Sequence record: FJ373894
Reading direction: 5' to 3' (one strand)
DNA length: 64,000 nt
DNA from: Shigella phage Ag3
The notes under the pieces were generated by a model. The model had not been told where the DNA came from, searched no databases, and worked only from the letters and a program-made list of their open reading frames with translations. Each line of letters starts with the position of its first letter. The first letter of the stretch is position 1. The translations under genes and the position numbers were made by a program. This document shows positions 7,394-56,355 of this stretch, piece by piece.

Positions 7394-7435
7394 ACTGGCT
7401 GCACACAGCAATACTTTGATTTGAGAAACTACATC

Positions 7436-7924
7436 ATGATGCTGTTAATGAGCGTTCCACAGAACAAGATGACCCCTGAAACAGAGGGTAAGAATCACTT
7501 CAACATCTACAGCCAGAGCCAAACGGAACTCGGGCGCTTCCTCTCGCATTTTGCCCATCATCCAGTGACTACCTATGAGCACGGCGTGTTCAACTCCATG
7601 GAAGGCTACTGGTATTGGCTAAAGTACAGGGATGACAACCTGCGCTTGCTCGACGGCTACGAAGCCAAGCAATATGGGCAGGGGTTGGCGGCCACTCGCA
7701 TCGCTGTCCTTGATCCATCATCCGAAGAATTCAAGCGCGACATTCTGTTTGCCACCAGCATGAAACTCCAGACAATGCCCGACCTGCTGAAGATCAGATT
7801 GGCGTACAGTCGACTCCCTCTGATCCATGCATACGTTCGGAACGGGAAATATAGTTTTCAAAACTCTATGGACTTTATCATAGACCACATTAATCGTCTC
7901 CGCATACAAGGAACTTTGAAATGA
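7436..7924 (+). CDS. NADAR-domain (YbiA-like) protein, putative ADP-ribose/N-glycoside hydrolase
   Basis: Segment IYSQSQTELGRFLSHFAHHPVTTYEHGVFNSMEGYWYWLKY matches the YbiA/NADAR core pattern (FYS.S..G.FSNF...P.....G..F.SxEhYFQ..KF) recalled from E. coli YbiA; about 162 aa, typical domain size. Confidence 0.5.
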   Translation: MMLLMSVPQNKMTPETEGKNHFNIYSQSQTELGRFLSHFAHHPVTTYEHGVFNSMEGYWYWLKYRDDNLRLLDGYEAKQYGQGLAATRIAVLDPSSEEFKRDILFATSMKLQTMPDLLKIRLAYSRLPLIHAYVRNGKYSFQNSMDFIIDHINRLRIQGTLK

Positions 7925-8502
7925 AATTTCTACATACCATCATTGGCACTTCTTATGATTGCACTGCTCATTGCCCTGACCGTTCGTCTGTGTTCGTCCT
8001 AGGTAAACTGGTAGAAGAATTGTGTGAGCTGTCTGATGTCTACAATGGCCTGGCGGCGTCGGAACCCCTGAACGGTGAAATCGCTGATGTTATCATCTCT
8101 GCGATTGATTTGCTATATGTCGTGGAGTTTAACCCTCACCAAATCAATGGTTGCATGAACAAGGAAGAAATGATCGATTCTGTTATCTTCCGTCTTGCAG
8201 AATTGGGGGCGACAGAATCAAAAGATGTGGAGAGCCACTGGTTCCATGTGGGTGATCTGAAACCGGAGAAGCATCTGGCGCTGGCCTTGCACTATCTAGG
8301 CAGAACAACCCGCCTTTTGAACCAACCATACCGTTCAGAAGACGATCTGGCGTACCTGGTGGACAGGATCATCACCTTCGCGGCCAAAATGGCTTGCGCT
8401 GTTGGCATCGTCAACTCTGTGTCTCAGTCGGACACGCGAGTGAAGGTGGAACACGCTATTGAACACAAAGTTGAAAAGTGGCGCACTAAATTTGGTCTAT
8501 AA
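7921..8502 (+). CDS. putative MazG-like nucleotide pyrophosphohydrolase
   Basis: 193 aa; ATGA overlap with upstream gene; acidic helix pattern LGKLVEELCELSD...GEIADVIISAIDLL resembles MazG-type EExxE motifs; weak. Confidence 0.3.
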   Translation: MKFLHTIIGTSYDCTAHCPDRSSVFVLGKLVEELCELSDVYNGLAASEPLNGEIADVIISAIDLLYVVEFNPHQINGCMNKEEMIDSVIFRLAELGATESKDVESHWFHVGDLKPEKHLALALHYLGRTTRLLNQPYRSEDDLAYLVDRIITFAAKMACAVGIVNSVSQSDTRVKVEHAIEHKVEKWRTKFGL

Positions 8503-10466: not shown

Positions 10467-10913
10467 ATGGAATACCCGCTAACTCATCAAATGCAGCCAA
10501 CAAAAGACACGTGCATGTCAACGTGTCTGGCGATGTTGCTTGGTCGCCCGGTTGCTGAGGTTGCTGAAACATGGCATGAAAGTTTCGCAAATTGGGAAAC
10601 CACGATTGGTGACGTTCTTTGTATGGAAGGGGTTCCGTTCTTGTGTGGGAAGGGAGTCAACCAAACTGTCACCATCTATCATGATTATGTCTACCTTCTT
10701 TGCGTGCCAAGTCCAGCAACGCCAGGGATATTGCATCAGATCATTATGGATACCCGAGGCGACAAAGTTGTCATACATGACCCACTGAAGGGTACTGGCA
10801 AAAGATATTACACCCTAGATGAAGACGACAAATCTCCTCTGGCGGTAAAACTTGAAACTTGGATTGTAGACTACATTGTCGACCCGTATGAAGTGGGAGG
10901 TTATCGTGGGTAA
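10467..10913 (+). CDS. putative papain-like (C39-like) cysteine peptidase domain protein
   Basis: 148 aa from ATG 10467, one base after the topo stop; N-terminal Q-x5-D-T-C-x-S-T-C-L-A-M-L-L-G resembles the C39 catalytic Cys motif; downstream His candidates (GILHQII, VVIHDP). Confidence 0.4.
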   Translation: MEYPLTHQMQPTKDTCMSTCLAMLLGRPVAEVAETWHESFANWETTIGDVLCMEGVPFLCGKGVNQTVTIYHDYVYLLCVPSPATPGILHQIIMDTRGDKVVIHDPLKGTGKRYYTLDEDDKSPLAVKLETWIVDYIVDPYEVGGYRG

Positions 10914-10914
10914 G

Positions 10915-12246
10915 ATGGTTGCCAAGAGCATTACTGTAACGGACTTTGTCAACACTGACCATAAGCAGTTTTCTGTGGTCAACAGCATCCGTCAAATCCC
11001 TCAGCTGATTGACAGCCTCAAGCCGAGCCAGCGCAAGATCCTTTTCGCTGCTCTTGAGTACAACAAGGAGGAGATCGTTGACCGCCTTGGTATGTTCGCC
11101 GCCGCCCGGACCAACTACAAGTCTGGTGGTGAGAACATGAGCGGCACTATCGTGAACATGGCTCAGGGGTTCCCAGGCACGAACAACATCCCATACTTTG
11201 ACCGCGATGGCCAGTTTGGTTCTATCATGGGGCGCGACGCGTCGTCGGCACGTTACATTTCGGTGGCTGTATCTGATGTTATCCGCAAGATCTTCCGCAA
11301 GGAGGATGAGGGCATTTTAGAATACAATTACCTTGGTGAAGAAAGACTGGAGCCGAAGTTCTTCCTGCCCATCCTACCCATGTTCCTGGTGAATGGGATC
11401 AATGGTATCGGCACCGGATATTCCACCGACACCCCGTGTCATTGCGTTAAGTCCGTGCTCAGTGCCCTGAGAGCGCTTCTCCGTGGCGAAGACCCGAAAG
11501 ACTTAAAACCGTACTGGAACGGCTACAAAGGGGAGACAGGCTATACTGAGGAAGGAAGAGCATACAGTCGCGGCATCTTCCGTCGCGTCAATGCCACCAC
11601 CCTGCATATCACCGAAGTCCCAGTGGGTTGGTTCGCCAAGACCTATGAGACCAAGGTGTTGCTGCCTCTGTACAAGGCTGGTATCCTGACCGAGTACGCC
11701 AACGACACGACCGAAGATGGCTGGGATATCACGGTTGTATTCAAGCGGGGTGAACTCTCTAAGCTGAGTGATGAACAGGTTGAGCAGATGTTCAAGTTGT
11801 ACTCTGCTAACAAGCCTGTTTGGACAGCATGGGATGAAGACGGGGTAATCCATCGTTATGCGGGCTGGCAGGATATGTTGCTGCCGTTCTTCAATTATCG
11901 CCTGTCGCGGTATGAAGATCGTCGCCAGTATCTGTTGAAGGACATGGCAGACAGGATCCGCAAGCTGGGTGACCGGGCGGTGTTCATTGAATGGGCGACG
12001 CGTGTTGATCTCCGCCAAAAGATTGACGTGCTGAAGTCTCTGTTCATGCAGGACTATCCGGACTTTGGCGGTGATCTTGACGAGTTGTTCAAGATGCCGC
12101 TGTCGTCTATTACTCTGGACGCCCGTGAGCGCCTACTCAAGCAGATTGAGAACCTTGAAGCACAACACAAGGAATTAAGTAAGAAAGAGGACATCGATCT
12201 TTACACTGAAGACCTTGATGACCTTGAAAAGGCTCTTGGCCTATAA
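10915..12246 (+). CDS. DNA topoisomerase II medium subunit (T4 gp52-like, GyrA-type cleavage-religation)
   Basis: 443 aa from ATG 10915 (GGAGG upstream); GyrA-like N-terminus with SQRKILFAALE and active-site region SSARYISVAV. Confidence 0.85.
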   Translation: MVAKSITVTDFVNTDHKQFSVVNSIRQIPQLIDSLKPSQRKILFAALEYNKEEIVDRLGMFAAARTNYKSGGENMSGTIVNMAQGFPGTNNIPYFDRDGQFGSIMGRDASSARYISVAVSDVIRKIFRKEDEGILEYNYLGEERLEPKFFLPILPMFLVNGINGIGTGYSTDTPCHCVKSVLSALRALLRGEDPKDLKPYWNGYKGETGYTEEGRAYSRGIFRRVNATTLHITEVPVGWFAKTYETKVLLPLYKAGILTEYANDTTEDGWDITVVFKRGELSKLSDEQVEQMFKLYSANKPVWTAWDEDGVIHRYAGWQDMLLPFFNYRLSRYEDRRQYLLKDMADRIRKLGDRAVFIEWATRVDLRQKIDVLKSLFMQDYPDFGGDLDELFKMPLSSITLDARERLLKQIENLEAQHKELSKKEDIDLYTEDLDDLEKALGL

Positions 12247-12250
12247 CATC

Positions 12251-12268
12251 GGAGGGGTTCGCCCCTCC
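12251..12268 (+). terminator. stable UUCG-tetraloop hairpin after topoisomerase genes (terminator or RNA stability element)
   Basis: GGAGGGG-TTCG-CCCCTCC, perfect 7-bp stem, 5 nt after stop; no U-tract, so terminator function uncertain. Confidence 0.35.
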
Positions 12269-12288
12269 TCACCTGCGAGGGTTGTGCT

Positions 12289-12576
12289 ATGTTCTATCTC
12301 CGTTCTGCGGCACCTGTGGTATTCATCATTTTCCTATTTGATTTCCTGGTTCCTCGCTTTATCAAAGAAGAGGTGGCGTTTGGTCTCTATGGTGAGACGG
12401 AAGACCCAGAGGTCGATGAATATTACCCAATGTGCGCCCTGAAAGATATCGAGGAAGGAGAAGATGTTGCAATGGTCGGCACCATGCGTTCTTTCAACCT
12501 GTTTGGGCTTGCACTCTTTCCGAAGCTGGTTGGTGAATTGCGCCCATACGATCCTGATGCTACTGTAGAGGGTTGA
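12289..12576 (+). CDS. hypothetical protein
   Basis: 95 aa; GAGGG RBS; hydrophobic N-terminus. Confidence 0.4.
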   Translation: MFYLRSAAPVVFIIFLFDFLVPRFIKEEVAFGLYGETEDPEVDEYYPMCALKDIEEGEDVAMVGTMRSFNLFGLALFPKLVGELRPYDPDATVEG

Positions 12577-12578
12577 CC

Positions 12579-12890
12579 ATGTCACAGCTTCTGAGTCCTA
12601 AACTTCTGTCTATGGGTGATTCCCTGTATTTTCACTGCCCTGGATGTGATATGCTTCACCCATATCGCGTGAAGGGTGATGCCCAAGGTCCGATGTGGTC
12701 GTGGAACAACAATGTCGTTGCTCCTACGTTCACGCCGAGCCTGCTGGTGGATGCATCTGATCCAGCATCACGTTGCCATCTGTTCCTGACCGACGGCAAA
12801 ATACAATTCCTCGGCGACTGTTTCCATGATCTGAAGAACCAGACAGTGGATATGGTCGACATCCCTGAACCTGAAATTTGGATTGAATAG
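12579..12890 (+). CDS. hypothetical protein with putative zinc-binding Cys/His cluster
   Basis: 103 aa from ATG 12579 (GAGGG upstream); CPGCDMLH ... CHLF ... CFH. Confidence 0.4.
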   Translation: MSQLLSPKLLSMGDSLYFHCPGCDMLHPYRVKGDAQGPMWSWNNNVVAPTFTPSLLVDASDPASRCHLFLTDGKIQFLGDCFHDLKNQTVDMVDIPEPEIWIE

Positions 12891-12893
12891 ATT

Positions 12894-13304
12894 ATGAAAT
12901 TACTCGGTTATTTTCGCGAACTCCCAACGGGCACTGAAGGCAAGTTGTTCTCACAGGTGAAAGGGAATGACATCGGTGATACGATGGTTCCTCTGTACAC
13001 CCGTGACCTTCCTGCCGAAGGTGCCTGGGAGCGCCGTGTGGTCGCTGCTGCAAACAAGTATGGTGACGTGATCGTCGTTGCCGACCGTCACCATAGCAAA
13101 TTCATGAACAGTCAGCTCAAGATCCTGAAAGAGGCTGGTGTGATTAAATCCACCCATACCCGTGAACAGGGCTTTATCGACAATCAGGGCAACTTCCTCA
13201 CTCGTGAAGAGGCTTGCGTCGTAGCCCGTGAAGCCGGACAAATCAATCAGGTGCGCCTGAAGACAACCCCATTCCGTGAACTCTTTTCCGAAGACCTCTA
13301 TTGA
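12894..13304 (+). CDS. hypothetical protein
   Basis: 136-aa ORF in operon context; no recognisable motif. Confidence 0.45.
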   Translation: MKLLGYFRELPTGTEGKLFSQVKGNDIGDTMVPLYTRDLPAEGAWERRVVAAANKYGDVIVVADRHHSKFMNSQLKILKEAGVIKSTHTREQGFIDNQGNFLTREEACVVAREAGQINQVRLKTTPFRELFSEDLY

Positions 13305-13311
13305 AGAAAAA

Positions 13312-13329
13312 GGCGGTATCATTACCGCC
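13312..13329. terminator. hairpin, possible terminator
   Basis: GGCGGTA-TCAT-TACCGCC perfect 7-bp stem 8 nt after stop; flanked by AAAAA upstream and TTGACCCCTTGTTTGG downstream (U-tract imperfect on plus strand). Confidence 0.35.
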
Positions 13330-13354
13330 TTGACCCCTTGTTTGGTAAGACAAA

Positions 13355-13597
13355 ATGAACCCAGAATTTGAAAACCTGTTTGAGCGTTGTTTTGAGCCTG
13401 CGTCTGTTGCGGGTTACATGGACCGCCTCAGTAAAGAGATCATTGTCCGTCTGGCGGCGAAGGGTATCCATGTTGGTACGCTCGTGCGCAACGGTGACAA
13501 CTTCATCATACAGATGTCCGACTGTCGTCATCGTTCTGGCATCTTCTACGTTAAATGCATTGACAACAGCATTATTGAATGGAGACAGTACGCATGA
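13355..13597 (+). CDS. hypothetical protein
   Basis: 80-aa ORF; stop overlaps start of macrodomain gene (ATGA). Confidence 0.4.
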   Translation: MNPEFENLFERCFEPASVAGYMDRLSKEIIVRLAAKGIHVGTLVRNGDNFIIQMSDCRHRSGIFYVKCIDNSIIEWRQYA

Positions 13598-14193
13598 CCA
13601 CATATGTAATCAACGGCGGTGATTTACTGAAAGCCGCCTGTAGTTTCAACCTGATCGACATCTTCGCCCATGGTGCCAACTGCTGGTCTACCATGGGTGC
13701 GGGTATTGCTCTGCATATCGGCAACAACTTCCCCGCCCTGCGTGAAGCCGATGCGAACGATCCTCGTGGTCCAGAGCAACGCCTGGGTGGCATGTCCTAT
13801 GCATTCGACCACAGCAAGGGCGTTTGGGGCGCGAACCTCTACACTCAGTTCTATCCAGGTCCGAATGCCCGCATGCCGTCTGTCATCAGTTCTGTTCAGA
13901 CCCTGTTTGAGCAGGTTCACGAAATTGTGGAAGCAACTAAAGACGAAACCGTCTATGTCGGTCTGCCTGCTATCGGCTGTGGCATCGGTGGTCTGAAGCT
14001 CTTCAGCGTTGTCTGTCAGATCAACAAGGTGGCAGTATCCGTGTTTGAAGAAACGCGCCGCCGGGTTGTGCCTGTGTTCTACATCCGGGAGGAAGACGGG
14101 TTCGATGATGATCTGATGGATCTGTCAGATCTGATTGAAGATGGTATCATGATCGTCGAAGATGAACAAGAAATCATCGACGAGGAGGCGTAA
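13594..14193 (+). CDS. macrodomain protein (ADP-ribose binding/hydrolase family)
   Basis: 199 aa from ATG 13594 (GGAG 9 nt upstream); motifs HGANCWSTMGAGIALHI and GLPAIGCGIGGLK match macrodomain signatures (xNAAN..GGGV..AI and P.IS.G..G); acidic C-terminal tail. Confidence 0.65.
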   Translation: MTTYVINGGDLLKAACSFNLIDIFAHGANCWSTMGAGIALHIGNNFPALREADANDPRGPEQRLGGMSYAFDHSKGVWGANLYTQFYPGPNARMPSVISSVQTLFEQVHEIVEATKDETVYVGLPAIGCGIGGLKLFSVVCQINKVAVSVFEETRRRVVPVFYIREEDGFDDDLMDLSDLIEDGIMIVEDEQEIIDEEA

Positions 14194-14826
14194 ATGTACA
14201 AGTCTAACTTCCTTGCTGTGGCTGATAGCGAGACTCTGGGTCGCTGGGATGATGCTGTCGTGTTGTCCTGGGCGCATACCATCGCCGACCTGACCAAGCG
14301 TTATACTCTTCAGCAGCTGGTTGAGGAGCGCACGACGTTCATCAAGCTGAATGTCAAAGAGCAGATCGAACTCGGTCGCGTGAAGGACCAGGGGACGGTA
14401 GAATGGTGGTTGGGGACGGGTAAACGCAACCCGTGTGATGCGGCTCGCGCCGTCAGTCTATACCCGACTGAGCAGGACATCTCTATCTTCCAGCTGGCCG
14501 ATGAAATCCGCAAGGGTTGTCATCGCCTTGGTGTCGACCCGCGCTCGGTTGACTGGTGTGACCGTAACTTGTTCGATCTGCGCAAGGCTCAACACATCAT
14601 TGAGGTGACGTGTAAGCAGGACTCCAACGAGCCATGGAATTACCACCACACCTTCGACATCGTGAGCTGGCTGAAGGGTGTTGGGCAGCAGGATCGCTAT
14701 GCTGGTATCAAGGCATGGGAACTGGAAGGCATGGTCTATCATGATCCTCGTTATGACGCCGCGCTTGATTGGCTTCGCATTCAAAAGACTATGGAAGACC
14801 TGATGGGTCTGGAGGTGGTAGGATGA
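14194..14826 (+). CDS. DEDDh-type 3'-5' exonuclease (DexA-like)
   Basis: 210 aa; Exo I-like AVADSET, C-terminal YHDPRYDAALD (H-x4-D) typical of the DnaQ/RNase T/DexA fold. Confidence 0.5.
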   Translation: MYKSNFLAVADSETLGRWDDAVVLSWAHTIADLTKRYTLQQLVEERTTFIKLNVKEQIELGRVKDQGTVEWWLGTGKRNPCDAARAVSLYPTEQDISIFQLADEIRKGCHRLGVDPRSVDWCDRNLFDLRKAQHIIEVTCKQDSNEPWNYHHTFDIVSWLKGVGQQDRYAGIKAWELEGMVYHDPRYDAALDWLRIQKTMEDLMGLEVVG

Positions 14827-15128
14827 GCGCATTCTTCGAATTCGTCGGCGTCATAACAGTGACAGTATTCCTCGTGGTGACGTTGGGAGTTCTGTACTCT
14901 CTGTTTGTTCATCCTGTGTTCCAGGCCATCAGTATCATGCGTTGGATCACCGCTTGCTCCTTGTCGGTGGGTAACAAGCCGCCGACCCTGAAAGAGAGAT
15001 GGAGTTTCTTCAAATGGGGATATGAAATCGGTGGACCCAGAACAACCCGCTACTCTAACAACACCGGAGAATGGTGTGGGATAGGCCGATGGCAAGTATT
15101 CAAATCTGAAGAAGATGAAGCCCCGTGA
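14823..15128 (+). CDS. small membrane protein
   Basis: 101 aa from ATG 14823 (ATGA overlap); TM segment FFEFVGVITVTVFLVVTLGVLYSLFV. Confidence 0.4.
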   Translation: MSAFFEFVGVITVTVFLVVTLGVLYSLFVHPVFQAISIMRWITACSLSVGNKPPTLKERWSFFKWGYEIGGPRTTRYSNNTGEWCGIGRWQVFKSEEDEAP

Positions 15129-15140
15129 GGGGCTTTTCTA
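15119..15140 (+). terminator. intrinsic terminator
   Basis: AGCCCC-GTGA-GGGGCT hairpin (GNRA loop containing the stop codon) followed by TTTTCTATAT. Confidence 0.6.
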
Positions 15141-15192
15141 TATCCAGGATAGAGTATCATTGTTTCACCAATGAATCCTCGGGAGAGGCGAT

Positions 15193-15534
15193 ATGAAACC
15201 GTCTGTTGTGGTGAACGACATCACTATGTTGATAAACCTCGTCAAGGATGTGTTTCCACAACAGGTGGATGTCGAATATGTTGGAAAGAACGGGAAGTGC
15301 TATCAGGTTGCTCTGTTGTTGAAGCACGTGTACCCTCAAGCAGAGATCCATTACAGTCAGATTGAAGGCCACGTGTACACTCTGATTGATGGGAACTATT
15401 ACGACATCGACGGCATCCACTTCAGTGTCCCACCGGACACGTGTTTGCTCGAACACAACAGAGGCCACAAACCACATCGCTGGCATAAAGGATTTGTGAA
15501 CGTACCGATTTTAGAATGGTTGAGGAGACCATAA
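15193..15534 (+). CDS. hypothetical protein
   Basis: 113 aa; GGGAGAGG RBS. Confidence 0.45.
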
Positions 15535-16094
15535 TGGCAGGAATTGTGAAGTATCTGGGCGACACCCACCTTGGGCACAAGAAGATCTTCAAGCCCCGTG
15601 GGTTCGACACACAGGAAGCCCACGACGCTGCGGTCATTGACAGTATCTATCAGGGACTGAAGTCCCGAGACGTCCTTGAACTTGCAGGCGACATCTGCTT
15701 CATCGGGGCTGAGGGGTTCATTCGCCTGATGCGCGAGGGTGCCAAGCGGAACATTGATGAGTTCAAACGCCGCCCGGTTCCCGATGACTGGCGACCGAAC
15801 TTTATCATCAGGGTGGCGCAAGGCAACCATGACAGCTTCAAGATGTTGATGCAGCTGTATCAAGAGGGATGGATTAGCTCCTTCGGTGCCATGTATGAGC
15901 GTGACACTCCGGTTGGTCGTGTGCTGACCACTCACGTTCCTTATCAATTAGACCGCTGGGCGTATAATATCCATGGTCATCTTCACGGCGAAATGCGTGA
16001 AGAACGCGAATACCTGAACTGCAGCTGGGAACAATTCAAGCGCCCTGTGACATTGGCCGAGCTGCTCTATACCAATCTGGGGATTGAATTATGA
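15534..16094 (+). CDS. calcineurin-like metallophosphoesterase
   Basis: 186 aa from ATG 15534 (TAATG overlap, GAGGAG RBS); motifs GDTHLG, GDICF, GNHD, HGHLHG. Confidence 0.6.
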
Positions 16095-16128
16095 GGGACG
16101 TCGCTTTGGCTTTCTGTATGGGGGCTGT

Positions 16129-16542
16129 ATGCCTCCTCGTGTTAATCATTGTAAAAACGGTATTGTCATCATGATCATTGCAGTGGATTTTGATGGGACT
16201 TGTGTGACACATGAGTACCCAAAGATCGGGCGGGATATCGGTGCTGAAGACTGCCTGAAGAGGCTCGTTGCCAAAGGGCATCAACTGATTTTGTTCACGA
16301 TGCGTTCTGGAGCGGAATTGGAGCAAGCGAAAACCTGGTTCCATGTTCGTGGCATCCCTCTGTATGGGGTTAATACGAACCCATCACAGAAGACTTGGAC
16401 GGAGTCTCCAAAGGCATACGCTCAGGTTTACATCGACGACGCTGCTCTTGGCTGTCCTCTCGTGTGGGATGAAATTTCCAATCGCCCCTGCGTGAATTGG
16501 CCAGAGATAGAACGCATGTTAAAGAAGAGAGGCATCTTATGA
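16129..16542 (+). CDS. putative HAD-family phosphatase
   Basis: DxDGT-type motif IIAVDFDGT near N-terminus; start ambiguous (ATG 16129 or 16171). Confidence 0.4.
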   Translation: MPPRVNHCKNGIVIMIIAVDFDGTCVTHEYPKIGRDIGAEDCLKRLVAKGHQLILFTMRSGAELEQAKTWFHVRGIPLYGVNTNPSQKTWTESPKAYAQVYIDDAALGCPLVWDEISNRPCVNWPEIERMLKKRGIL

Positions 16543-23940: not shown

Positions 23941-24606
23941 TCAGATTCCGTGGGCTTGTATTAGCTCACGGAGTCTCTGTTTTGAATATGTTGTATCCTC
24001 ATCCGGAACTACAGCATTCGTCTTCCTGAGCAGGAAAGCCTCAGAGTTCCAGTAGACGTCCTCCCGCAGCTGGGTGTCATACAGGTGGATGAACCCCACT
24101 ATCTTGTTCAGACCAACCAGGAACCACATCGGGAACCGCTTGGTGATGATGTCTGTCAGCAGCGCCGGGTGCCCCTGGCCTGTACCCTTCACATAATCAA
24201 TGAACGTCAGGTTGCGCTCTTTGATGGCCGGGATCATCTCCCTCTCGAACTCCTCAAGGAAGTTGTATGTGAAGTTGTCGTATAGCTTGCGATATTCATC
24301 ATAATTCGATTGCGCCTGGCGGGTAAGCAATGTTGTTACCCAGGTCTTTGGTGATTTGATGAAGTTGGCGATGATGTAATTCTCTACCACTTCACCCTGG
24401 GATGTTTCGAACCGACGAGCCAGGCGAGCAAACTGTTTGCACACGGCTTCCTTCGCCAAGAAGGTTTCGAACTTGTAGTTCATCGGTCCATACAAACTGT
24501 AGTCGAAGTCCTTGGTGGTGAAGTGCAGCTTGATCGCCATGAAGACACAGTAAACGTTGAACGCCCGTTCAAACTGCATTTTTTCCCAATCGGTATACTC
24601 ACGCAT
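23941..24606 (-). CDS. gp59-like helicase loader
   Basis: 221 aa (T4 gp59 about 217); N-terminal hydrophobic/aromatic pattern similar to T4 gp59 as recalled; moderate. Confidence 0.4.
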   Translation of the reverse strand: MREYTDWEKMQFERAFNVYCVFMAIKLHFTTKDFDYSLYGPMNYKFETFLAKEAVCKQFARLARRFETSQGEVVENYIIANFIKSPKTWVTTLLTRQAQSNYDEYRKLYDNFTYNFLEEFEREMIPAIKERNLTFIDYVKGTGQGHPALLTDIITKRFPMWFLVGLNKIVGFIHLYDTQLREDVYWNSEAFLLRKTNAVVPDEDTTYSKQRLRELIQAHGI

Positions 24607-25294
24607 TTTTCATTTCCTCGAAAAACTTAACCCAATTCTCATCATTGTACGGCACCCATCCTTTTTGAAATCTTTGTATGCAACTTTTGGCGGTCATTTC
24701 GGCGCGATCTACCCCCAATTCCTTGGCCATCGTTACATTTCGACATATGCCCAACCTGGCACCATCGGCTACCCACCAATCATAGAATACTCCTGCCAAA
24801 GCCCAATATTTGCGGGTATGCTTCGCATTTGGACTCTCCCAAGGCTTTGAATGGATTTGTTTTAATTTGGAACGTTGTGAATCTGATTTGGGTCTGTCCA
24901 TCAGCGAATCGGAAATTTTCGATCTGTGTTCGCGGGATAACGCCACCCCCTTGAATCTTTCACTGCATTTTCGTTTAAACTCTGGAGTGCTGTTGGCTGC
25001 CTTCATCCTTTCCCATTTTCTGAGAGCAAACTCTTCATATTGGCGTGAAGTTTGTGATTTTGATCTATTTCTCATCAAAGAAAAGATTTTCACGTATGCA
25101 GGGGACATACTGAATATCTTGGCCAAAAGTTTGTGAACTATGAAATGCTCCCGAGCAGTTAGAACAGCAATATTCTCCGCAGTATCACTCCCTCCCAAGC
25201 TCCTGGGTTCTCTATGGTGTCTTTCTGAATACCCAATCAGATTGCGAGAATAAGACCTTTCAAGGATAGAAAACAACGCTCGGGTGTAGTTCAT
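24599..25294 (-). CDS. HNH homing endonuclease
   Basis: HNH motif ERHHREPRSLGGSDTAENIAVLTAREH; paralogous to ORF 55663..56355 (shared MNY.., GYSE.HH..P..GGSD, KPWESP, GWNP motifs). Confidence 0.75.
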   Translation of the reverse strand: MNYTRALFSILERSYSRNLIGYSERHHREPRSLGGSDTAENIAVLTAREHFIVHKLLAKIFSMSPAYVKIFSLMRNRSKSQTSRQYEEFALRKWERMKAANSTPEFKRKCSERFKGVALSREHRSKISDSLMDRPKSDSQRSKLKQIHSKPWESPNAKHTRKYWALAGVFYDWWVADGARLGICRNVTMAKELGVDRAEMTAKSCIQRFQKGWVPYNDENWVKFFEEMKNA

Positions 25295-55662: not shown

Positions 55663-56355
55663 CTATTGATTTACAAAACCTAACCATCCCGCGTCTTCTT
55701 TTGGGTTCCAACCATCTTTGAATTTATTGACCATAGTCCTCAATGAATTGTTCGGAGAGACGAAACCGAAATATCTACCGAGTCTGCAATATCCTTCTTG
55801 TTTTAATTTCCATTTCTCATAGTATTTATCGGCATCTTTCCATATCTTTAACGTGGTGGCGTTGGAAGCTGGGCTTTCCCAAGGAGGAACGCCTTTCATT
55901 TTGGAGTACATGTCTTTCATTTTATCCGGATAAAGTTTATGCATATTCTTCATTCTTTCCGAAGATTCTTTCCTTATATTTGGATTCTCTGAATTCAAAC
56001 GCTTCATCCTTTCCGATCTCATTTTTCTTAATTCAGGATCTTCTTTGCACCTCAGTTTGTGGGCAATTGAGGACTTCCTGCGAAGCCAACCATGAGTTTT
56101 GTTGTTTCTTCCGTTGTGTGGGTTGTAACCACCCATCATGTTGGCGGCGAATATCAATTTCCTGTTGTCTGGGTGCATCTTTACGAGCAAGAGATGAGCA
56201 ACATAATGTTCTTCCGGCGTCAGGCGAACAAGGTTGTCGGGGTTGTCCGAACCACCCATGCATTTCGGCACAACATGATGCAATTCGGAATATCCTTCTA
56301 TGGTTCTTTGTTTGGCTTTGTTGATTAGTGACTGATAGATATTGGCGTAGTTCAT
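55663..56355 (-). CDS. HNH homing endonuclease
   Basis: HNH motif ELHHVVPKCMGGSDNPDNLVRLTPEEH; paralog of ORF 24599..25294. Confidence 0.75.
   Translation of the reverse strand: MNYANIYQSLINKAKQRTIEGYSELHHVVPKCMGGSDNPDNLVRLTPEEHYVAHLLLVKMHPDNRKLIFAANMMGGYNPHNGRNNKTHGWLRRKSSIAHKLRCKEDPELRKMRSERMKRLNSENPNIRKESSERMKNMHKLYPDKMKDMYSKMKGVPPWESPASNATTLKIWKDADKYYEKWKLKQEGYCRLGRYFGFVSPNNSLRTMVNKFKDGWNPKEDAGWLGFVNQ

What the first reader, a model, noticed from the sequence alone, without database searches (positions are those of the whole stretch)
13594..14826. Macrodomain protein directly followed by a DEDDh 3'-5' exonuclease
ORF 13594..14193 has macrodomain signatures (HGANC..MGAGIA; LPAIGCGIGG) and an acidic tail; its stop abuts the start of a DexA-like exonuclease. 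Macrodomains remove or bind ADP-ribose (for example DarG-type antitoxins reverse thymidine ADP-ribosylation) or degrade ADP-ribose-derived signals. Together with the NADAR-like gene this phage would carry two distinct ADP-ribosyl hydrolase folds.
Basis: partly seen in the sequence, partly recalled or inferred. Interest (0 to 1): 0.6.

Follow-up and report, generated by a model that had tools for sequence, protein, structure and literature searches.

The report
Phage anti-DarT macrodomain beside DexA exonuclease
This Ackermannviridae phage carries a homologue of phage T4's Tk.4/AdfM macrodomain, which probably strips ADP-ribose off phage DNA to beat the bacterial DarTG2 defence; it sits next to an ordinary DexA-type DNA exonuclease, and the pairing is only local gene order.

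Summary
ORF 13594..14193 is a macrodomain: AF2 pLDDT 96, with best fold and profile matches to TARG1, DarG and SCO6735. ORF 14194..14826 is a DexA-family DEDDh exonuclease whose ATG directly follows the macro stop codon.

The macro protein falls in the same PHROG (335) as T4 Tk.4, with 34% identity and the same motifs. Tk.4 was recently shown to be AdfM, T4's anti-DarTG2 factor. The catalytic Lys80 of DarG is a Gln here (Q85, in NLYTQ). SCO6735 has the same Gln and is active on thymidine-linked ADP-ribose, and T4 AdfM has it too.

The window also holds a divergent NADAR gene (7469..7924). It is in the same PHROG (652) as T4 AdfN, so the phage has both T4-type anti-DarT enzyme folds.

The macro-exonuclease pairing occurs only in Ackermannviridae. 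In 15 of 22 such loci an extra ORF separates the two genes. None of about 58 macro loci from other phages has a DexA-like gene within 4 kb. I therefore read the pairing as synteny, not a functional module.

One feature is specific to the Ackermannviridae version: a confidently modelled, strongly acidic C-terminal module of 35 aa (charge about -16) of unknown role.

Verdict: new member of a known kind, modest interest.

The parts
13594..14193 (+). CDS for a stand-alone macrodomain protein of 199 aa, a T4 Tk.4/AdfM-family homologue
   Evidence: PHROG 335 at 1.2e-63; T4 Tk.4 hits the same PHROG at 1.3e-65. BLASTP against T4 Tk.4: 34% identity, 3e-16. NCBIfam DarG 2.4e-8 and PADLOC DarG 3.4e-7, macro part only. 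Family profile against PDB: DarG 5.6e-15, SCO6735 2.9e-14, TARG1 4.5e-14. AF2 pLDDT 96.3. Foldseek top hits are TARG1, DarG and Poa1p.
13669..13710 (+). Codons for aa 26-39, HGANCWSTMGAGIA: His26, Asn29 and the first glycine-rich ADP-ribose-binding loop
   Evidence: H26, G27, N29, G37 and I38 are invariant in 32 homologues. The stretch aligns to DarG 'NTVN..GVMGKG[VI]A' and SCO6735 'AHVCN..GKG'. The equivalent Asn (DarG N22, SCO6735 N27) is needed for activity (PMC13309987; PMC9411070).
13834..13848 (+). Codons for aa 81-85, NLYTQ; Gln85 occupies the position of catalytic Lys80 of DarG and Lys84 of TARG1
   Evidence: N81, Y83, T84 and Q85 are invariant in 32 homologues. The profile alignment places NLYTQ on DarG 'NFPTK' and on SCO6735 'NMIGQ'. 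T4 Tk.4 also has NLYTQ. Among the 83 loci the N-x-[YF]-[TS]-Q motif dominates, with a single K variant.
13966..13992 (+). Codons for aa 125-133, PAIGCGIGG: the second glycine-rich (phosphate-binding) loop
   Evidence: P125, G128, G130 and G133 are invariant. The loop aligns to DarG 'PPLGAGNGG'.
14086..14190 (+). Codons for aa 165-199: an acidic C-terminal module specific to the Ackermannviridae version
   Evidence: 17 D/E against 1 K/R, charge -16, while the core (aa 1-164) is -2.2, the same as T4 Tk.4 at -2.3. Modelled with pLDDT above 90 as helix 171-178, strand 185-188 and helix 191-198. Present in the close homologues in the alignment (P0006-P0029) and absent from the 146-164 aa members such as T4 Tk.4. 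Serratia phage phiMAM1 macro (201 aa, 29% identity) superposes over the full length with TMq 0.85. The tail diverges faster than the core: 51-53% against 76-78% identity.
14182..14188 (+). GAGGAGG Shine-Dalgarno sequence for the exonuclease gene, embedded in the last macro codons
   Evidence: Read directly from the sequence. There are 5 nt between it and the ATG at 14194.
14194..14826 (+). CDS for a DexA-family DEDDh 3'-5' exonuclease of 210 aa
   Evidence: PHROG 255 'exonuclease' at 5.7e-54. phmmer against PDB 8KEL (T4 DexA): 3.9e-5 over residues 9-207 of the query and 5-210 of the chain; 8KEL is identified as DexA in PMC12153337. Pfam Rv2179c-like exoribonuclease 0.0023, below the cut-off. 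The alignment with T4 DexA shows D11, E13, D128, H183 and D188. It is 91-95% identical across Kuttervirus-like loci, more conserved than the topoisomerase gene.
7469..7924 (+). Companion gene outside the reported coordinates: a divergent NADAR-fold protein (151 aa from the ATG at 7469; the open frame begins at 7421), an AdfN-like candidate
   Evidence: PHROG 652 at 4.6e-52, the same PHROG as T4 gp30.3/AdfN at 9.2e-51. One homologue is named YbiA/DUF1768 by JGI. AF2 pLDDT 90.7. The top three Foldseek PDB hits are all NADARs: YbiA 2B3W at 1.2e-4 with TMq 0.64, then 8BAU and 8BAT. There is no Pfam hit and no direct sequence hit to T4 AdfN.

Best explanation
Gene 13594..14193 encodes an orphan, stand-alone macrodomain ADP-ribosyl glycohydrolase of the ALC1-like class (TARG1, DarG, SCO6735, Poa1p). 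It belongs to the same phage family as T4 Tk.4, now called AdfM.

Proposed mechanism:
- The gene sits in an early/accessory gene cluster.
- The enzyme binds the ADP-ribose attached by host DarT2 toxins to thymidine in single-stranded phage DNA. Binding uses the two glycine-rich loops (MGAGIA and PAIGCGIGG).
- Asn29 holds Gln85 in place against the distal ribose. The N-glycosidic bond is then hydrolysed by a water-mediated mechanism that needs no lysine, as in SCO6735.
- Replication is restored in DarTG2-carrying hosts.
- The NADAR-fold gene at 7469..7924 would do the same job for guanine-linked ADP-ribose made by DarT1, as AdfN does in T4.

The downstream gene 14194..14826 is a DexA-family DEDDh 3'-5' DNA exonuclease. 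In T4, DexA serves host-DNA scavenging and recombination or intron homing. Its adjacency to the macro gene, and probable translational coupling through the embedded Shine-Dalgarno sequence, reflect compact Ackermannviridae gene order rather than a two-protein machine.

Shown here: fold, family membership, conserved active-site residues and gene order. Inferred: substrate (T-ADPr DNA), anti-DarTG2 role, timing of expression, and any role of the acidic C-terminal module.
For: Fold. The AF2 model has pLDDT 96.3 and pTM 0.92. Foldseek PDB top hits are TARG1 4J5Q/R/S (about 3e-9, TMt 0.75-0.81), DarG 5M3I, 5M3E and 5M31, Poa1p and SCO6735.

Profile. The family profile against PDB gives T. aquaticus DarG 5.6e-15, M. 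tuberculosis DarG 7.6e-15, SCO6735 2.9e-14 and TARG1 4.5e-14. DarG models in NCBIfam and PADLOC match the macro part.

Same family as T4 Tk.4. Both proteins hit PHROG 335 at about 1e-63 to 1e-65. Pairwise identity is 34% at 3e-16, with shared HGxNC, MGxG[IV]A, NLYTQ and PxIGxGIG motifs.

Function of the family.
- A tk.4 knockout sensitises T4 specifically to DarTG2 (10.1101/2025.11.20.689424).
- PhiKZ AdfM removes DarT2-made ADP-ribose from DNA in vitro (PMC13309987).
- SCO6735, which has Gln at the Lys80 position, efficiently de-ADP-ribosylates thymidine. Its Q85A and N27S mutants are inactive (PMC9411070).

Active site. H26, N29 and Q85 are invariant in 32 homologues.

Orphan status. The neighbours are DUF7234 and DexA, with no DarT.

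Exonuclease. Identified.

Pairing is only synteny.
- Of 22 Ackermannviridae loci, 7 abut or overlap and 15 have 243-622 bp between the genes. An inserted ORF was seen in the two gapped loci whose ORFs were listed: 127 aa in L020 and 114 aa in L021.
- The roughly 58 non-Ackermannviridae macro loci have no DexA-like ORF within 4 kb, by tblastn and by an HMM that includes T4 DexA.
- In T4, tk.4 (60.9 kb) and dexA (8.2 kb) are far apart.
Against: - No biochemical or genetic test exists for any Ackermannviridae member. A search for DarTG together with Ackermannviridae returned one paper, not opened, whose title concerns Klebsiella phage-host interactions generally.
- Identity to T4 Tk.4 is only 34% over the core.
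- The window protein alone scores below Pfam's Macro threshold (15.2 against 22 bits).
- The class also contains ADP-ribose-1''-phosphate phosphatases (Poa1p, profile 2e-9) and protein de-ADP-ribosylases (TARG1), so substrate cannot be read from the fold.
- The whole protein is very acidic (net -18, pI 4.35), which is unusual for a DNA-directed enzyme.
- One relative (L021) has a frameshifted macro gene. This may be an assembly error.
- From my own knowledge, Ackermannviridae partly replace thymidine with hypermodified 5-substituted dU. That could change both DarT2 targeting and the substrate.
Confidence: 0.65

Rival explanations
1. The macrodomain mainly processes small ADP-ribose derivatives rather than DNA adducts. 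Candidates are ADP-ribose-1''-phosphate (Poa1p-type 'A1pp phosphatase'), O-acetyl-ADP-ribose, and TIR- or Thoeris-type ADP-ribose immune signals.
For:
- Poa1p structures are significant profile and fold hits.
- The protein's strong net negative charge fits a small-molecule enzyme better than a DNA enzyme.
Against: - The only genetic phenotype reported for a family member, T4 tk.4, is specific sensitivity to DarTG2.
- The best profile matches are DarG and SCO6735, both DNA de-ADP-ribosylases.
- A literature search found no phage macrodomain acting on Thoeris signals.
- The acidic charge lies almost entirely in the C-terminal module. The core has the same charge as T4 Tk.4.
Confidence: 0.15
2. 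The macrodomain reverses ADP-ribosylation of protein or RNA. The modification could come from host ART toxins (for example an mRNA-targeting toxin of the CmdT type) or from the phage's own transferases.
For: TARG1 and SCO6735, both close structural relatives, also act on ADP-ribosylated proteins (PMC9411070).
Against: - No ADP-ribosyltransferase appears in the annotation of the corresponding region of the relative ChubbyThor.
- SCO6735 appears to use a different mechanism on proteins, and DarG is inactive on proteins.
- No member of the T4 Tk.4 family has been linked to such a role.
Confidence: 0.1
3. The macrodomain and the exonuclease form a functional two-gene module. For example, the exonuclease might resect ADP-ribosylated or de-ADP-ribosylated single-stranded DNA while the macrodomain recognises the lesion.
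For: - The stop and start codons abut, and the exonuclease Shine-Dalgarno sequence lies inside the macro gene.
- Both genes lie in the same neighbourhood in all 22 Ackermannviridae loci examined, including a distant member with 50% macro identity.
Against: - The genes are separated by 243-622 bp in 15 of 22 loci, with an inserted ORF seen where ORFs were listed (L020 and L021).
- Macro loci from other phage families have no DexA-like ORF within 4 kb, even by HMM search.
- The two genes are 52 kb apart in T4.
- Their evolutionary rates differ sharply: exonuclease 91-95% identity against macro 67-78%.
- Abutting or overlapping genes are the norm in this cluster.
Confidence: 0.05
4. The protein is a non-catalytic ADP-ribose binder or sponge, because the catalytic lysine of DarG and TARG1 is missing.
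For: Lys80 (DarG) / Lys84 (TARG1) is replaced by Gln85. One relative's GenBank annotation reads 'putative ADP-ribose binding protein'.
Against: SCO6735 has the same Gln and is the most active thymidine de-ADP-ribosylase of the three enzymes compared, with Gln85 essential. T4 AdfM also has Gln and protects against DarTG2. Asn29 and His26 are invariant.
Confidence: 0.05

Closest known systems
T4 Tk.4 = AdfM (anti-DarT factor macrodomain; HIDEN-SEQ preprint 10.1101/2025.11.20.689424)
   Same: Same PHROG (335) at comparable E-values. The HGxNC, MGxG[IV]A, NLYTQ and PxIGxGIG motifs are shared, including Gln at the DarG Lys80 position. Both are stand-alone orphans with no DarT neighbour. Core charge and size are the same. 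Both phages also carry a PHROG 652 NADAR (AdfN type).
   Different: Identity is only 34% over about 110 residues. The window protein has an extra, structured, acidic C-terminal module of about 35 aa. Genomic context differs: between DUF7234 and DexA here, between tk.3 and vs in T4. The window protein has not been tested.
Chimallivirus AdfM (PhiKZ gp104; Cell Rep 2026, PMC13309987)
   Same: A phage-encoded orphan DarG2-like macrodomain. It is shown to remove DarT2-made ADP-ribose from DNA and to protect against DarTG2.
   Different: PhiKZ AdfM keeps the DarG-type Lys (K78) and is imported into the phage nucleus. The window protein has Gln85, and Ackermannviridae are not known to form a phage nucleus (my own knowledge). 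I did not compare the two sequences directly.
DarG2 antitoxin macrodomain (T. aquaticus 5M31/5M3E, M. tuberculosis 5M3I)
   Same: Best profile hits in the PDB at about 6e-15. Same fold. The Asn and both glycine-rich loops are conserved.
   Different: Lys80 is Gln85 here. The C-terminal DarT-binding domain is absent: the match covers positions 6-134 of the 338-position NCBIfam model and scores 33.7 bits against a cut-off of 250. No adjacent darT gene.
Streptomyces coelicolor SCO6735 (PDB 5E3B; PMC9411070)
   Same: A stand-alone ALC1-like macrodomain. Gln sits at the catalytic-Lys position and the His-x-x-Asn motif is present. It is active on thymidine-linked ADP-ribose and rescues DarT toxicity.
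   Different: SCO6735 has a loop 5 residues longer after the Gln, carrying Lys89 and credited with its high DNA activity. The phage family lacks this insertion (alignment). SCO6735 is a bacterial chromosomal gene.
T4 DexA (exonuclease A; PDB 8KEL; PMC12153337)
   Same: Full-length alignment, DEDDh residues and the same PHROG annotation. [quoted passage not shown]
   Different: Low identity (phmmer 3.9e-5). The window protein lacks 7 residues after motif II and the C-terminal tail of about 15 aa found in T4 DexA. Whether it discriminates modified from unmodified DNA is unknown.

Membership tests
Macrodomain superfamily, ALC1-like class (TARG1 / DarG / SCO6735 / Poa1p) | Three-layer alpha/beta/alpha macro fold | tested here: met
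   AF2 pLDDT 96.3. Foldseek PDB finds 196 hits at E<=1e-3; the listed top hits are macrodomains or macro-scaffold designs, with the ALC1-like class best at TMt 0.75-0.81.
Macrodomain superfamily, ALC1-like class (TARG1 / DarG / SCO6735 / Poa1p) | Two glycine-rich ADP-ribose/phosphate-binding loops | tested here: met
   MGAGIA and PAIGCGIGG are invariant or nearly so in 32 homologues and align to the DarG loops.
Macrodomain superfamily, ALC1-like class (TARG1 / DarG / SCO6735 / Poa1p) | Pfam PF01661 score above the gathering threshold | tested here: inconclusive
   The window protein alone scores 15.2 bits against a cut-off of 22. Many homologues at 35-45% identity carry PF01661, and the family profile hits macro structures at 1e-14. 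This is a detection threshold, not a structural criterion.
AdfM, T4 Tk.4 type (phage anti-DarT2 macrodomain) | Sequence homology to T4 Tk.4 | tested here: met
   BLASTP gives 34% identity at 3e-16. Both proteins hit PHROG 335 at about 1e-63 to 1e-65.
AdfM, T4 Tk.4 type (phage anti-DarT2 macrodomain) | Conserved active-site residues (His, Asn, and Gln in NLYTQ) | tested here: met
   H26, N29 and Q85 are invariant and are present in T4 Tk.4.
AdfM, T4 Tk.4 type (phage anti-DarT2 macrodomain) | Orphan: encoded by a phage without a cognate DarT | tested here: met
   The neighbours are DUF7234 and DexA. The ten neighbouring ORFs scanned with Pfam gave no DarT-family hit.
AdfM, T4 Tk.4 type (phage anti-DarT2 macrodomain) | Removes DarT2-made ADP-ribose from DNA, or protects the phage from DarTG2 | not testable with these tools
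   Needs biochemistry or phage genetics. Shown only for T4 (genetics) and PhiKZ (biochemistry and genetics).
DarG2 antitoxin (type II TA system DarTG2) | Catalytic Lys80 | tested here: not met
   The profile alignment puts Gln85 at that position.
DarG2 antitoxin (type II TA system DarTG2) | C-terminal DarT-binding domain | tested here: not met
   The match covers positions 6-134 of 338 in the NCBIfam DarG model and scores 33.7 bits against a cut-off of 250. PADLOC DarG matches positions 20-132 of 329.
DarG2 antitoxin (type II TA system DarTG2) | Adjacent darT toxin gene | tested here: not met
   No such gene flanks the ORF.
SCO6735-type Gln macrodomains | Gln at the catalytic-Lys position, positioned by the conserved Asn | tested here: met
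   NLYTQ aligns to NMIGQ, and HGAN aligns to HVCN. The role of these residues is described in PMC9411070.
SCO6735-type Gln macrodomains | Extended mobile loop (5 residues longer, with Lys89) after the Gln | tested here: not met
   In the profile alignment SCO6735 has a 5-residue insertion ('gmktg') relative to the phage family.
DexA family, DEDDh 3'-5' exonucleases | D-E-D-D plus His motif residues in order | tested here: met
   D11, E13, D128, H183 and D188 align with the T4 DexA motifs IIDFET, SFDFP and AHDSIHD.
DexA family, DEDDh 3'-5' exonucleases | Full-length homology to T4 DexA | tested here: met
   phmmer against 8KEL gives 3.9e-5 over residues 9-207 of the query and 5-210 of the chain. 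PHROG 255 at 5.7e-54.
DexA family, DEDDh 3'-5' exonucleases | 3'-5' exonuclease activity on DNA | not testable with these tools
   Needs an enzyme assay.
NADAR superfamily / AdfN (companion gene 7469..7924) | NADAR fold | tested here: met
   AF2 pLDDT 90.7. The top three Foldseek PDB hits are YbiA 2B3W (1.2e-4, TMq 0.64), 8BAU and 8BAT.
NADAR superfamily / AdfN (companion gene 7469..7924) | Pfam NADAR (PF08719) match or direct similarity to T4 AdfN | tested here: inconclusive
   No Pfam hit at E<=1. phmmer with T4 gp30.3 gives E=9.8. Both proteins nevertheless hit PHROG 652 at about 1e-51. The family profile against 8BAU gives E=0.39 with a plausible LSNF / E-[YH] alignment.

The most novel reading that the evidence does not exclude
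The Ackermannviridae-specific C-terminal module (aa 165-199) may give this AdfM homologue a second activity. The module is confidently modelled, carries a net charge of about -16, and is conserved as an architecture down to 29% identity.

Two forms of this idea are open:
- It acts as a DNA mimic that occupies the single-stranded-DNA groove of DarT2, so the enzyme both inhibits the toxin directly and erases its product. DarG achieves this with its separate C-terminal domain.
- It acts as an acidic tail that docks the enzyme onto the phage SSB or replisome, as the tails of T4 gp32 and T7 gp2.5 do.

A further open point, from my own knowledge, is that this phage family has hypermodified thymidines. 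The enzyme may therefore be adapted to ADP-ribosylated 5-substituted deoxyuridine rather than plain thymidine.
Probability: 0.15. Interest if true: 0.55.

Novelty: new member of a known kind. Interest (0 to 1): 0.3.

Why it matters
The result extends the newly defined AdfM (T4 Tk.4) anti-DarTG2 family to Ackermannviridae. These are Salmonella, Shigella, E. coli and Klebsiella phages that are widely considered for biocontrol and therapy.

It also shows that these phages pair the macrodomain with an AdfN-type NADAR, as T4 does. They are therefore probably armed against both DarTG subtypes. This is a practical predictor of host range on DarTG-carrying strains.

Two further points are useful:
- The dominant phage version of this enzyme has Gln, not Lys, at the catalytic position. 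That supports the lysine-independent mechanism proposed for SCO6735.
- The acidic C-terminal module is a defined and easily testable variant.

The macro-exonuclease adjacency that drew attention carries no special meaning.

Tried and rejected
1. **Single-sequence searches for the macro protein.** Pfam (E=0.02, below threshold) and PDB (E=0.024) were too weak on their own. The single-sequence PDB alignment also misplaced Lys80 onto Gly. A 32-sequence profile corrected this.
2. **AdfB of phage ICP1.** I checked it as a possible macrodomain precedent. It is a small toxin-binding protein, not a macrodomain.
3. **Finding the NADAR gene.**
   - A regex for the LSNF motif failed.
   - tblastn and phmmer with T4 AdfN failed.
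   - Pfam failed.
   - A single-sequence PDB search failed.
   - ChubbyThor's GenBank annotation does not name it.
   - It was recognised only through PHROG, a homologue's name and the predicted fold.
4. **Macro-exonuclease pairing as a conserved module.** Rejected.
5. **Macro as an unusually fast-evolving arms-race gene.** Not supported. Its divergence (67-78%) is typical of the neighbouring accessory ORFs (33-84%). The outlier is DexA, which is unusually conserved.
6. **Promoter and terminator scan of 12000-16000.** Counts were close to shuffled expectation and gave no clear signal between the genes.
7. **Literature searches.** I looked for phage macrodomains acting on Thoeris signals and for DarTG in Ackermannviridae. 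Neither turned up anything relevant.
8. **Position of the acidic module.** Model coordinates are not exposed, so I could not see where the module packs on the core.
Full report
**Source of the window.** The window comes from an Ackermannviridae phage of the genus Agtrevirus. Region 13300-15200 is 95-98% identical at the nucleotide level to Salmonella phages P46FS4, SW16-7 and SP-9-14 and to Shigella phage MK-13. It matches 228 phage records in all. The taxonomy comes from the annotated relatives.

**Observation.** ORF 13594..14193 (199 aa) and ORF 14194..14826 (210 aa) are present on the + strand. TAA at 14191-14193 is followed directly by ATG at 14194.
- The quoted motifs are there: HGANC at aa 26-30, MGAGIA at aa 34-39 and PAIGCGIGG at aa 125-133.
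- The last 35 residues carry 17 D/E and 1 K/R.
- Close homologues in the alignment begin MTTYVI or a near variant, and GGAG lies 9 nt upstream, so the start at 13594 is preferred over the ATG at 13579.
- The exonuclease's GAGGAGG ribosome-binding site lies inside the last macro codons.
- Abutting or overlapping genes are the rule in this cluster, with gaps of -4, 3, 50, -4, 0, -4, 64, -19, -11, -4, 70, -4 and 10 nt. The abutment alone is therefore unremarkable.

**The first gene is a macrodomain.** Single-sequence searches were weak: Pfam Macro E=0.02, below threshold, and PDB 5M3I E=0.024. Stronger evidence came from family-level searches.
- PHROG 335 matches at 1.2e-63.
- DarG models match the macro part: NCBIfam 2.4e-8 and PADLOC 3.4e-7.
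- A 32-sequence family alignment (A1), used as a profile against the PDB, hits T. aquaticus DarG (5.6e-15), M. tuberculosis DarG (7.6e-15), SCO6735 (2.9e-14), TARG1 (4.5e-14), BT1257 and Poa1p.
- The AlphaFold2 model is very confident (pLDDT 96.3, pTM 0.92). Its best PDB fold matches are TARG1, DarG, Poa1p, TTHA0132 and SCO6735, with TM-scores of 0.65-0.81 on the target.

The protein is therefore an ALC1-like class macrodomain.

**Link to a characterised phage protein.** Several relatives annotate the gene as 'Tk.4 protein'.
- T4 Tk.4 is 34% identical over the core, at 3e-16.
- It carries the same HGCNC, MGSGVA, NLYTQ and PRIGAGIG motifs.
- It falls in the same PHROG 335, at 1.3e-65.

A transposon-sequencing preprint found tk.4 to be the single T4 gene conditionally required on a DarTG2 host. 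A clean knockout confirmed this, and the authors named the gene adfM (10.1101/2025.11.20.689424). Independently, the macrodomain of chimalliviruses (PhiKZ gp104), also named AdfM, was shown to remove DarT2-made ADP-ribose from DNA and to protect the phage (PMC13309987). An earlier paper had noted that T4 lacking AdfA and AdfN is still DarTG2-resistant (PMC11825919). The family is very common: tblastn finds relatives in 2,665 of 50,697 phage records.

**Active site.** The profile alignment places the invariant NLYTQ motif on DarG 'NFPTK' and on SCO6735 'NMIGQ'.
- Catalytic Lys80 of DarG (Lys84 of TARG1) is therefore Gln85 here.
- This Gln is invariant in the 32 aligned homologues, present in T4 AdfM, and dominant across the 83 loci examined, with a single Lys variant.
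- SCO6735 has the same Gln. It is the most active thymidine de-ADP-ribosylase among SCO6735, DarG and TARG1. It is inactivated by Q85A and by N27S, and a water-mediated, lysine-independent mechanism has been proposed for it (PMC9411070).
- The equivalent Asn (N29) and His (H26) are invariant here.
- The phage family lacks the loop insertion of 5 residues found in SCO6735.
- PhiKZ AdfM keeps the Lys (K78).

**Not a DarG antitoxin proper.** The DarT-binding C-terminal domain is absent: NCBIfam positions 6-134 of 338 match, at 33.7 bits against a cut-off of 250. No darT gene is nearby; the neighbours are DUF7234 and DexA.

**What is particular to this version.** Residues 165-199 form an extra module with a net charge of about -16. 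The core has the same charge (-2.2) as T4 Tk.4 (-2.3).
- The module is modelled with pLDDT above 90 as helix, strand, helix.
- It is present in the close homologues in the alignment (P0006-P0029).
- The whole architecture superposes on the 201-aa macro protein of Serratia phage phiMAM1 at 29% identity, TMq 0.85.
- It evolves faster than the core: 51-53% against 76-78% identity.

Its role is unknown. I could not inspect where it packs, because model coordinates are not exposed.

**The second gene is a DexA-family exonuclease.**
- PHROG 255 'exonuclease' matches at 5.7e-54.
- There is a full-length phmmer match to PDB 8KEL at 3.9e-5, and 8KEL is T4 DexA (PMC12153337).
- An alignment with T4 DexA shows D11, E13, D128, H183 and D188 in register with IIDFET, SFDFP and AHDSIHD.
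- The protein is 91-95% identical across Kuttervirus-like relatives, more conserved than the topoisomerase subunit (82-87%).

**Is the pairing meaningful?** I fetched 79 viral-contig loci encoding macro relatives; two further loci in the analysis were the annotated GenBank relatives fetched earlier.
- A homologue of the exonuclease occurs within 4 kb only in the 21 Ackermannviridae loci.
- An HMM that included T4 DexA found none in the remaining loci, of which there are about 58.
- Within Ackermannviridae, 7 of 22 loci including the window have the genes abutting or overlapping. The other 15 have 243-622 bp between them.
- P46FS4, which is 99% identical in both flanking genes, has a 127-aa ORF (PHROG 5613, unknown function) in that gap. 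L021 has a related 114-aa ORF.
- In T4 the two genes are about 52 kb apart.

The pairing is therefore family-level synteny with a variable slot between the genes, not a conserved module.

**The NADAR claim.** ORF 7469..7924 has no Pfam hit and no detectable similarity to T4 AdfN by phmmer. The positive evidence is as follows.
- It hits PHROG 652 at 4.6e-52, and T4 gp30.3/AdfN hits the same PHROG at 9.2e-51.
- One homologue is named YbiA/DUF1768 by JGI.
- Its AF2 model (pLDDT 90.7) has NADAR structures as its top three PDB fold hits, led by YbiA at 1.2e-4 with TMq 0.64.
- AdfN-type NADARs remove guanine-linked ADP-ribose made by DarT1 (PMC11825919).

The phage therefore carries both hydrolase folds, as T4 does. 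This fits the reported tendency of Macro and NADAR domains to co-occur in DNA viruses (PMC9503650).

**Mechanism and confidence.** The most likely reading (0.65) is an orphan, Gln-type AdfM that de-ADP-ribosylates thymidine in phage single-stranded DNA to defeat DarTG2, alongside an unrelated DexA exonuclease. The rivals are:
- small-molecule ADP-ribose processing (0.15);
- reversal of protein or RNA ADP-ribosylation (0.10);
- a macro-exonuclease module (0.05);
- a non-catalytic binder (0.05).

Fold, family and residues are shown here. Substrate and biological role are inferred by homology. A search for DarTG together with Ackermannviridae returned only one paper, which I did not open and whose title concerns Klebsiella phage-host interactions in general.

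**Novelty and verdict.** This is a new member of a known kind, and relatives already carry 'Tk.4', 'phosphatase' or 'ADP-ribose binding' labels. The acidic C-terminal module and the fact that this phage family has modified thymidines (my own knowledge) are the only elements that could make it more than routine.

Noticed in passing
window 7469..7924 (+) and 7921..8502 (+): A divergent NADAR-fold gene (PHROG 652, the same as T4 AdfN, and invisible to Pfam) overlaps by 4 nt with a MazG-like pyrophosphatase gene (PHROG 1247, 7.6e-36). This may be a small nucleotide or ADP-ribose counter-defence pair.
   Followed up: partly
L020 4597..4980 (Salmonella phage P46FS4); the equivalent slot in the window is the 14193/14194 junction: The junction between the macro and exonuclease genes is a variable slot. 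15 of 22 Ackermannviridae loci have 243-622 bp there. P46FS4 carries a 127-aa ORF of unknown function (PHROG 5613) in the slot and L021 a related 114-aa ORF, whereas the window has none.
   Followed up: partly
L021 3986..4601 (IMG/VR UViG_2974515140, Kuttervirus-like): The macro gene is split by a frameshift into a 108-aa ORF and a 144-aa ORF. BFVD also lists a 103-aa macro fragment from Salmonella phage bering. This is either a pseudogene, consistent with a conditionally dispensable anti-defence gene, or an assembly error.
   Followed up: partly
window 14194..14826 compared with 10876..12246: The DexA homologue is the most conserved gene in the neighbourhood across Ackermannviridae: 91-95% aa identity where the topoisomerase II medium subunit is 82-87% and small accessory ORFs are 33-84%. 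This suggests strong constraint on the exonuclease.
   Followed up: no
window 13355..13597 (+): An 80-aa DUF7234 protein (Pfam 1.2e-42) has its stop codon overlapping the macro start (ATGA). It diverges very fast among relatives (33-48% identity in Kuttervirus-like loci). Function unknown.
   Followed up: no
window 12573..12890, 12894..13304, 15193..15534, 16084..16542 (+): The surrounding early cluster holds further uncharacterised accessory genes: DUF6527, an 'Arn.3'-labelled protein (PHROG 839), a YunG-like protein, and a HAD-like protein with a DxDGT motif that PHROG 1238 labels 'phosphoheptose isomerase'.
   Followed up: no
window 24599..25294 (-) and 55663..56355 (-): Two ORFs with similar N-termini (SERHH / SELHH ... 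GGSD) lie at positions where the relative ChubbyThor annotates HNH endonucleases, inside the replication and nucleotide-metabolism regions. They are probably homing endonucleases.
   Followed up: no
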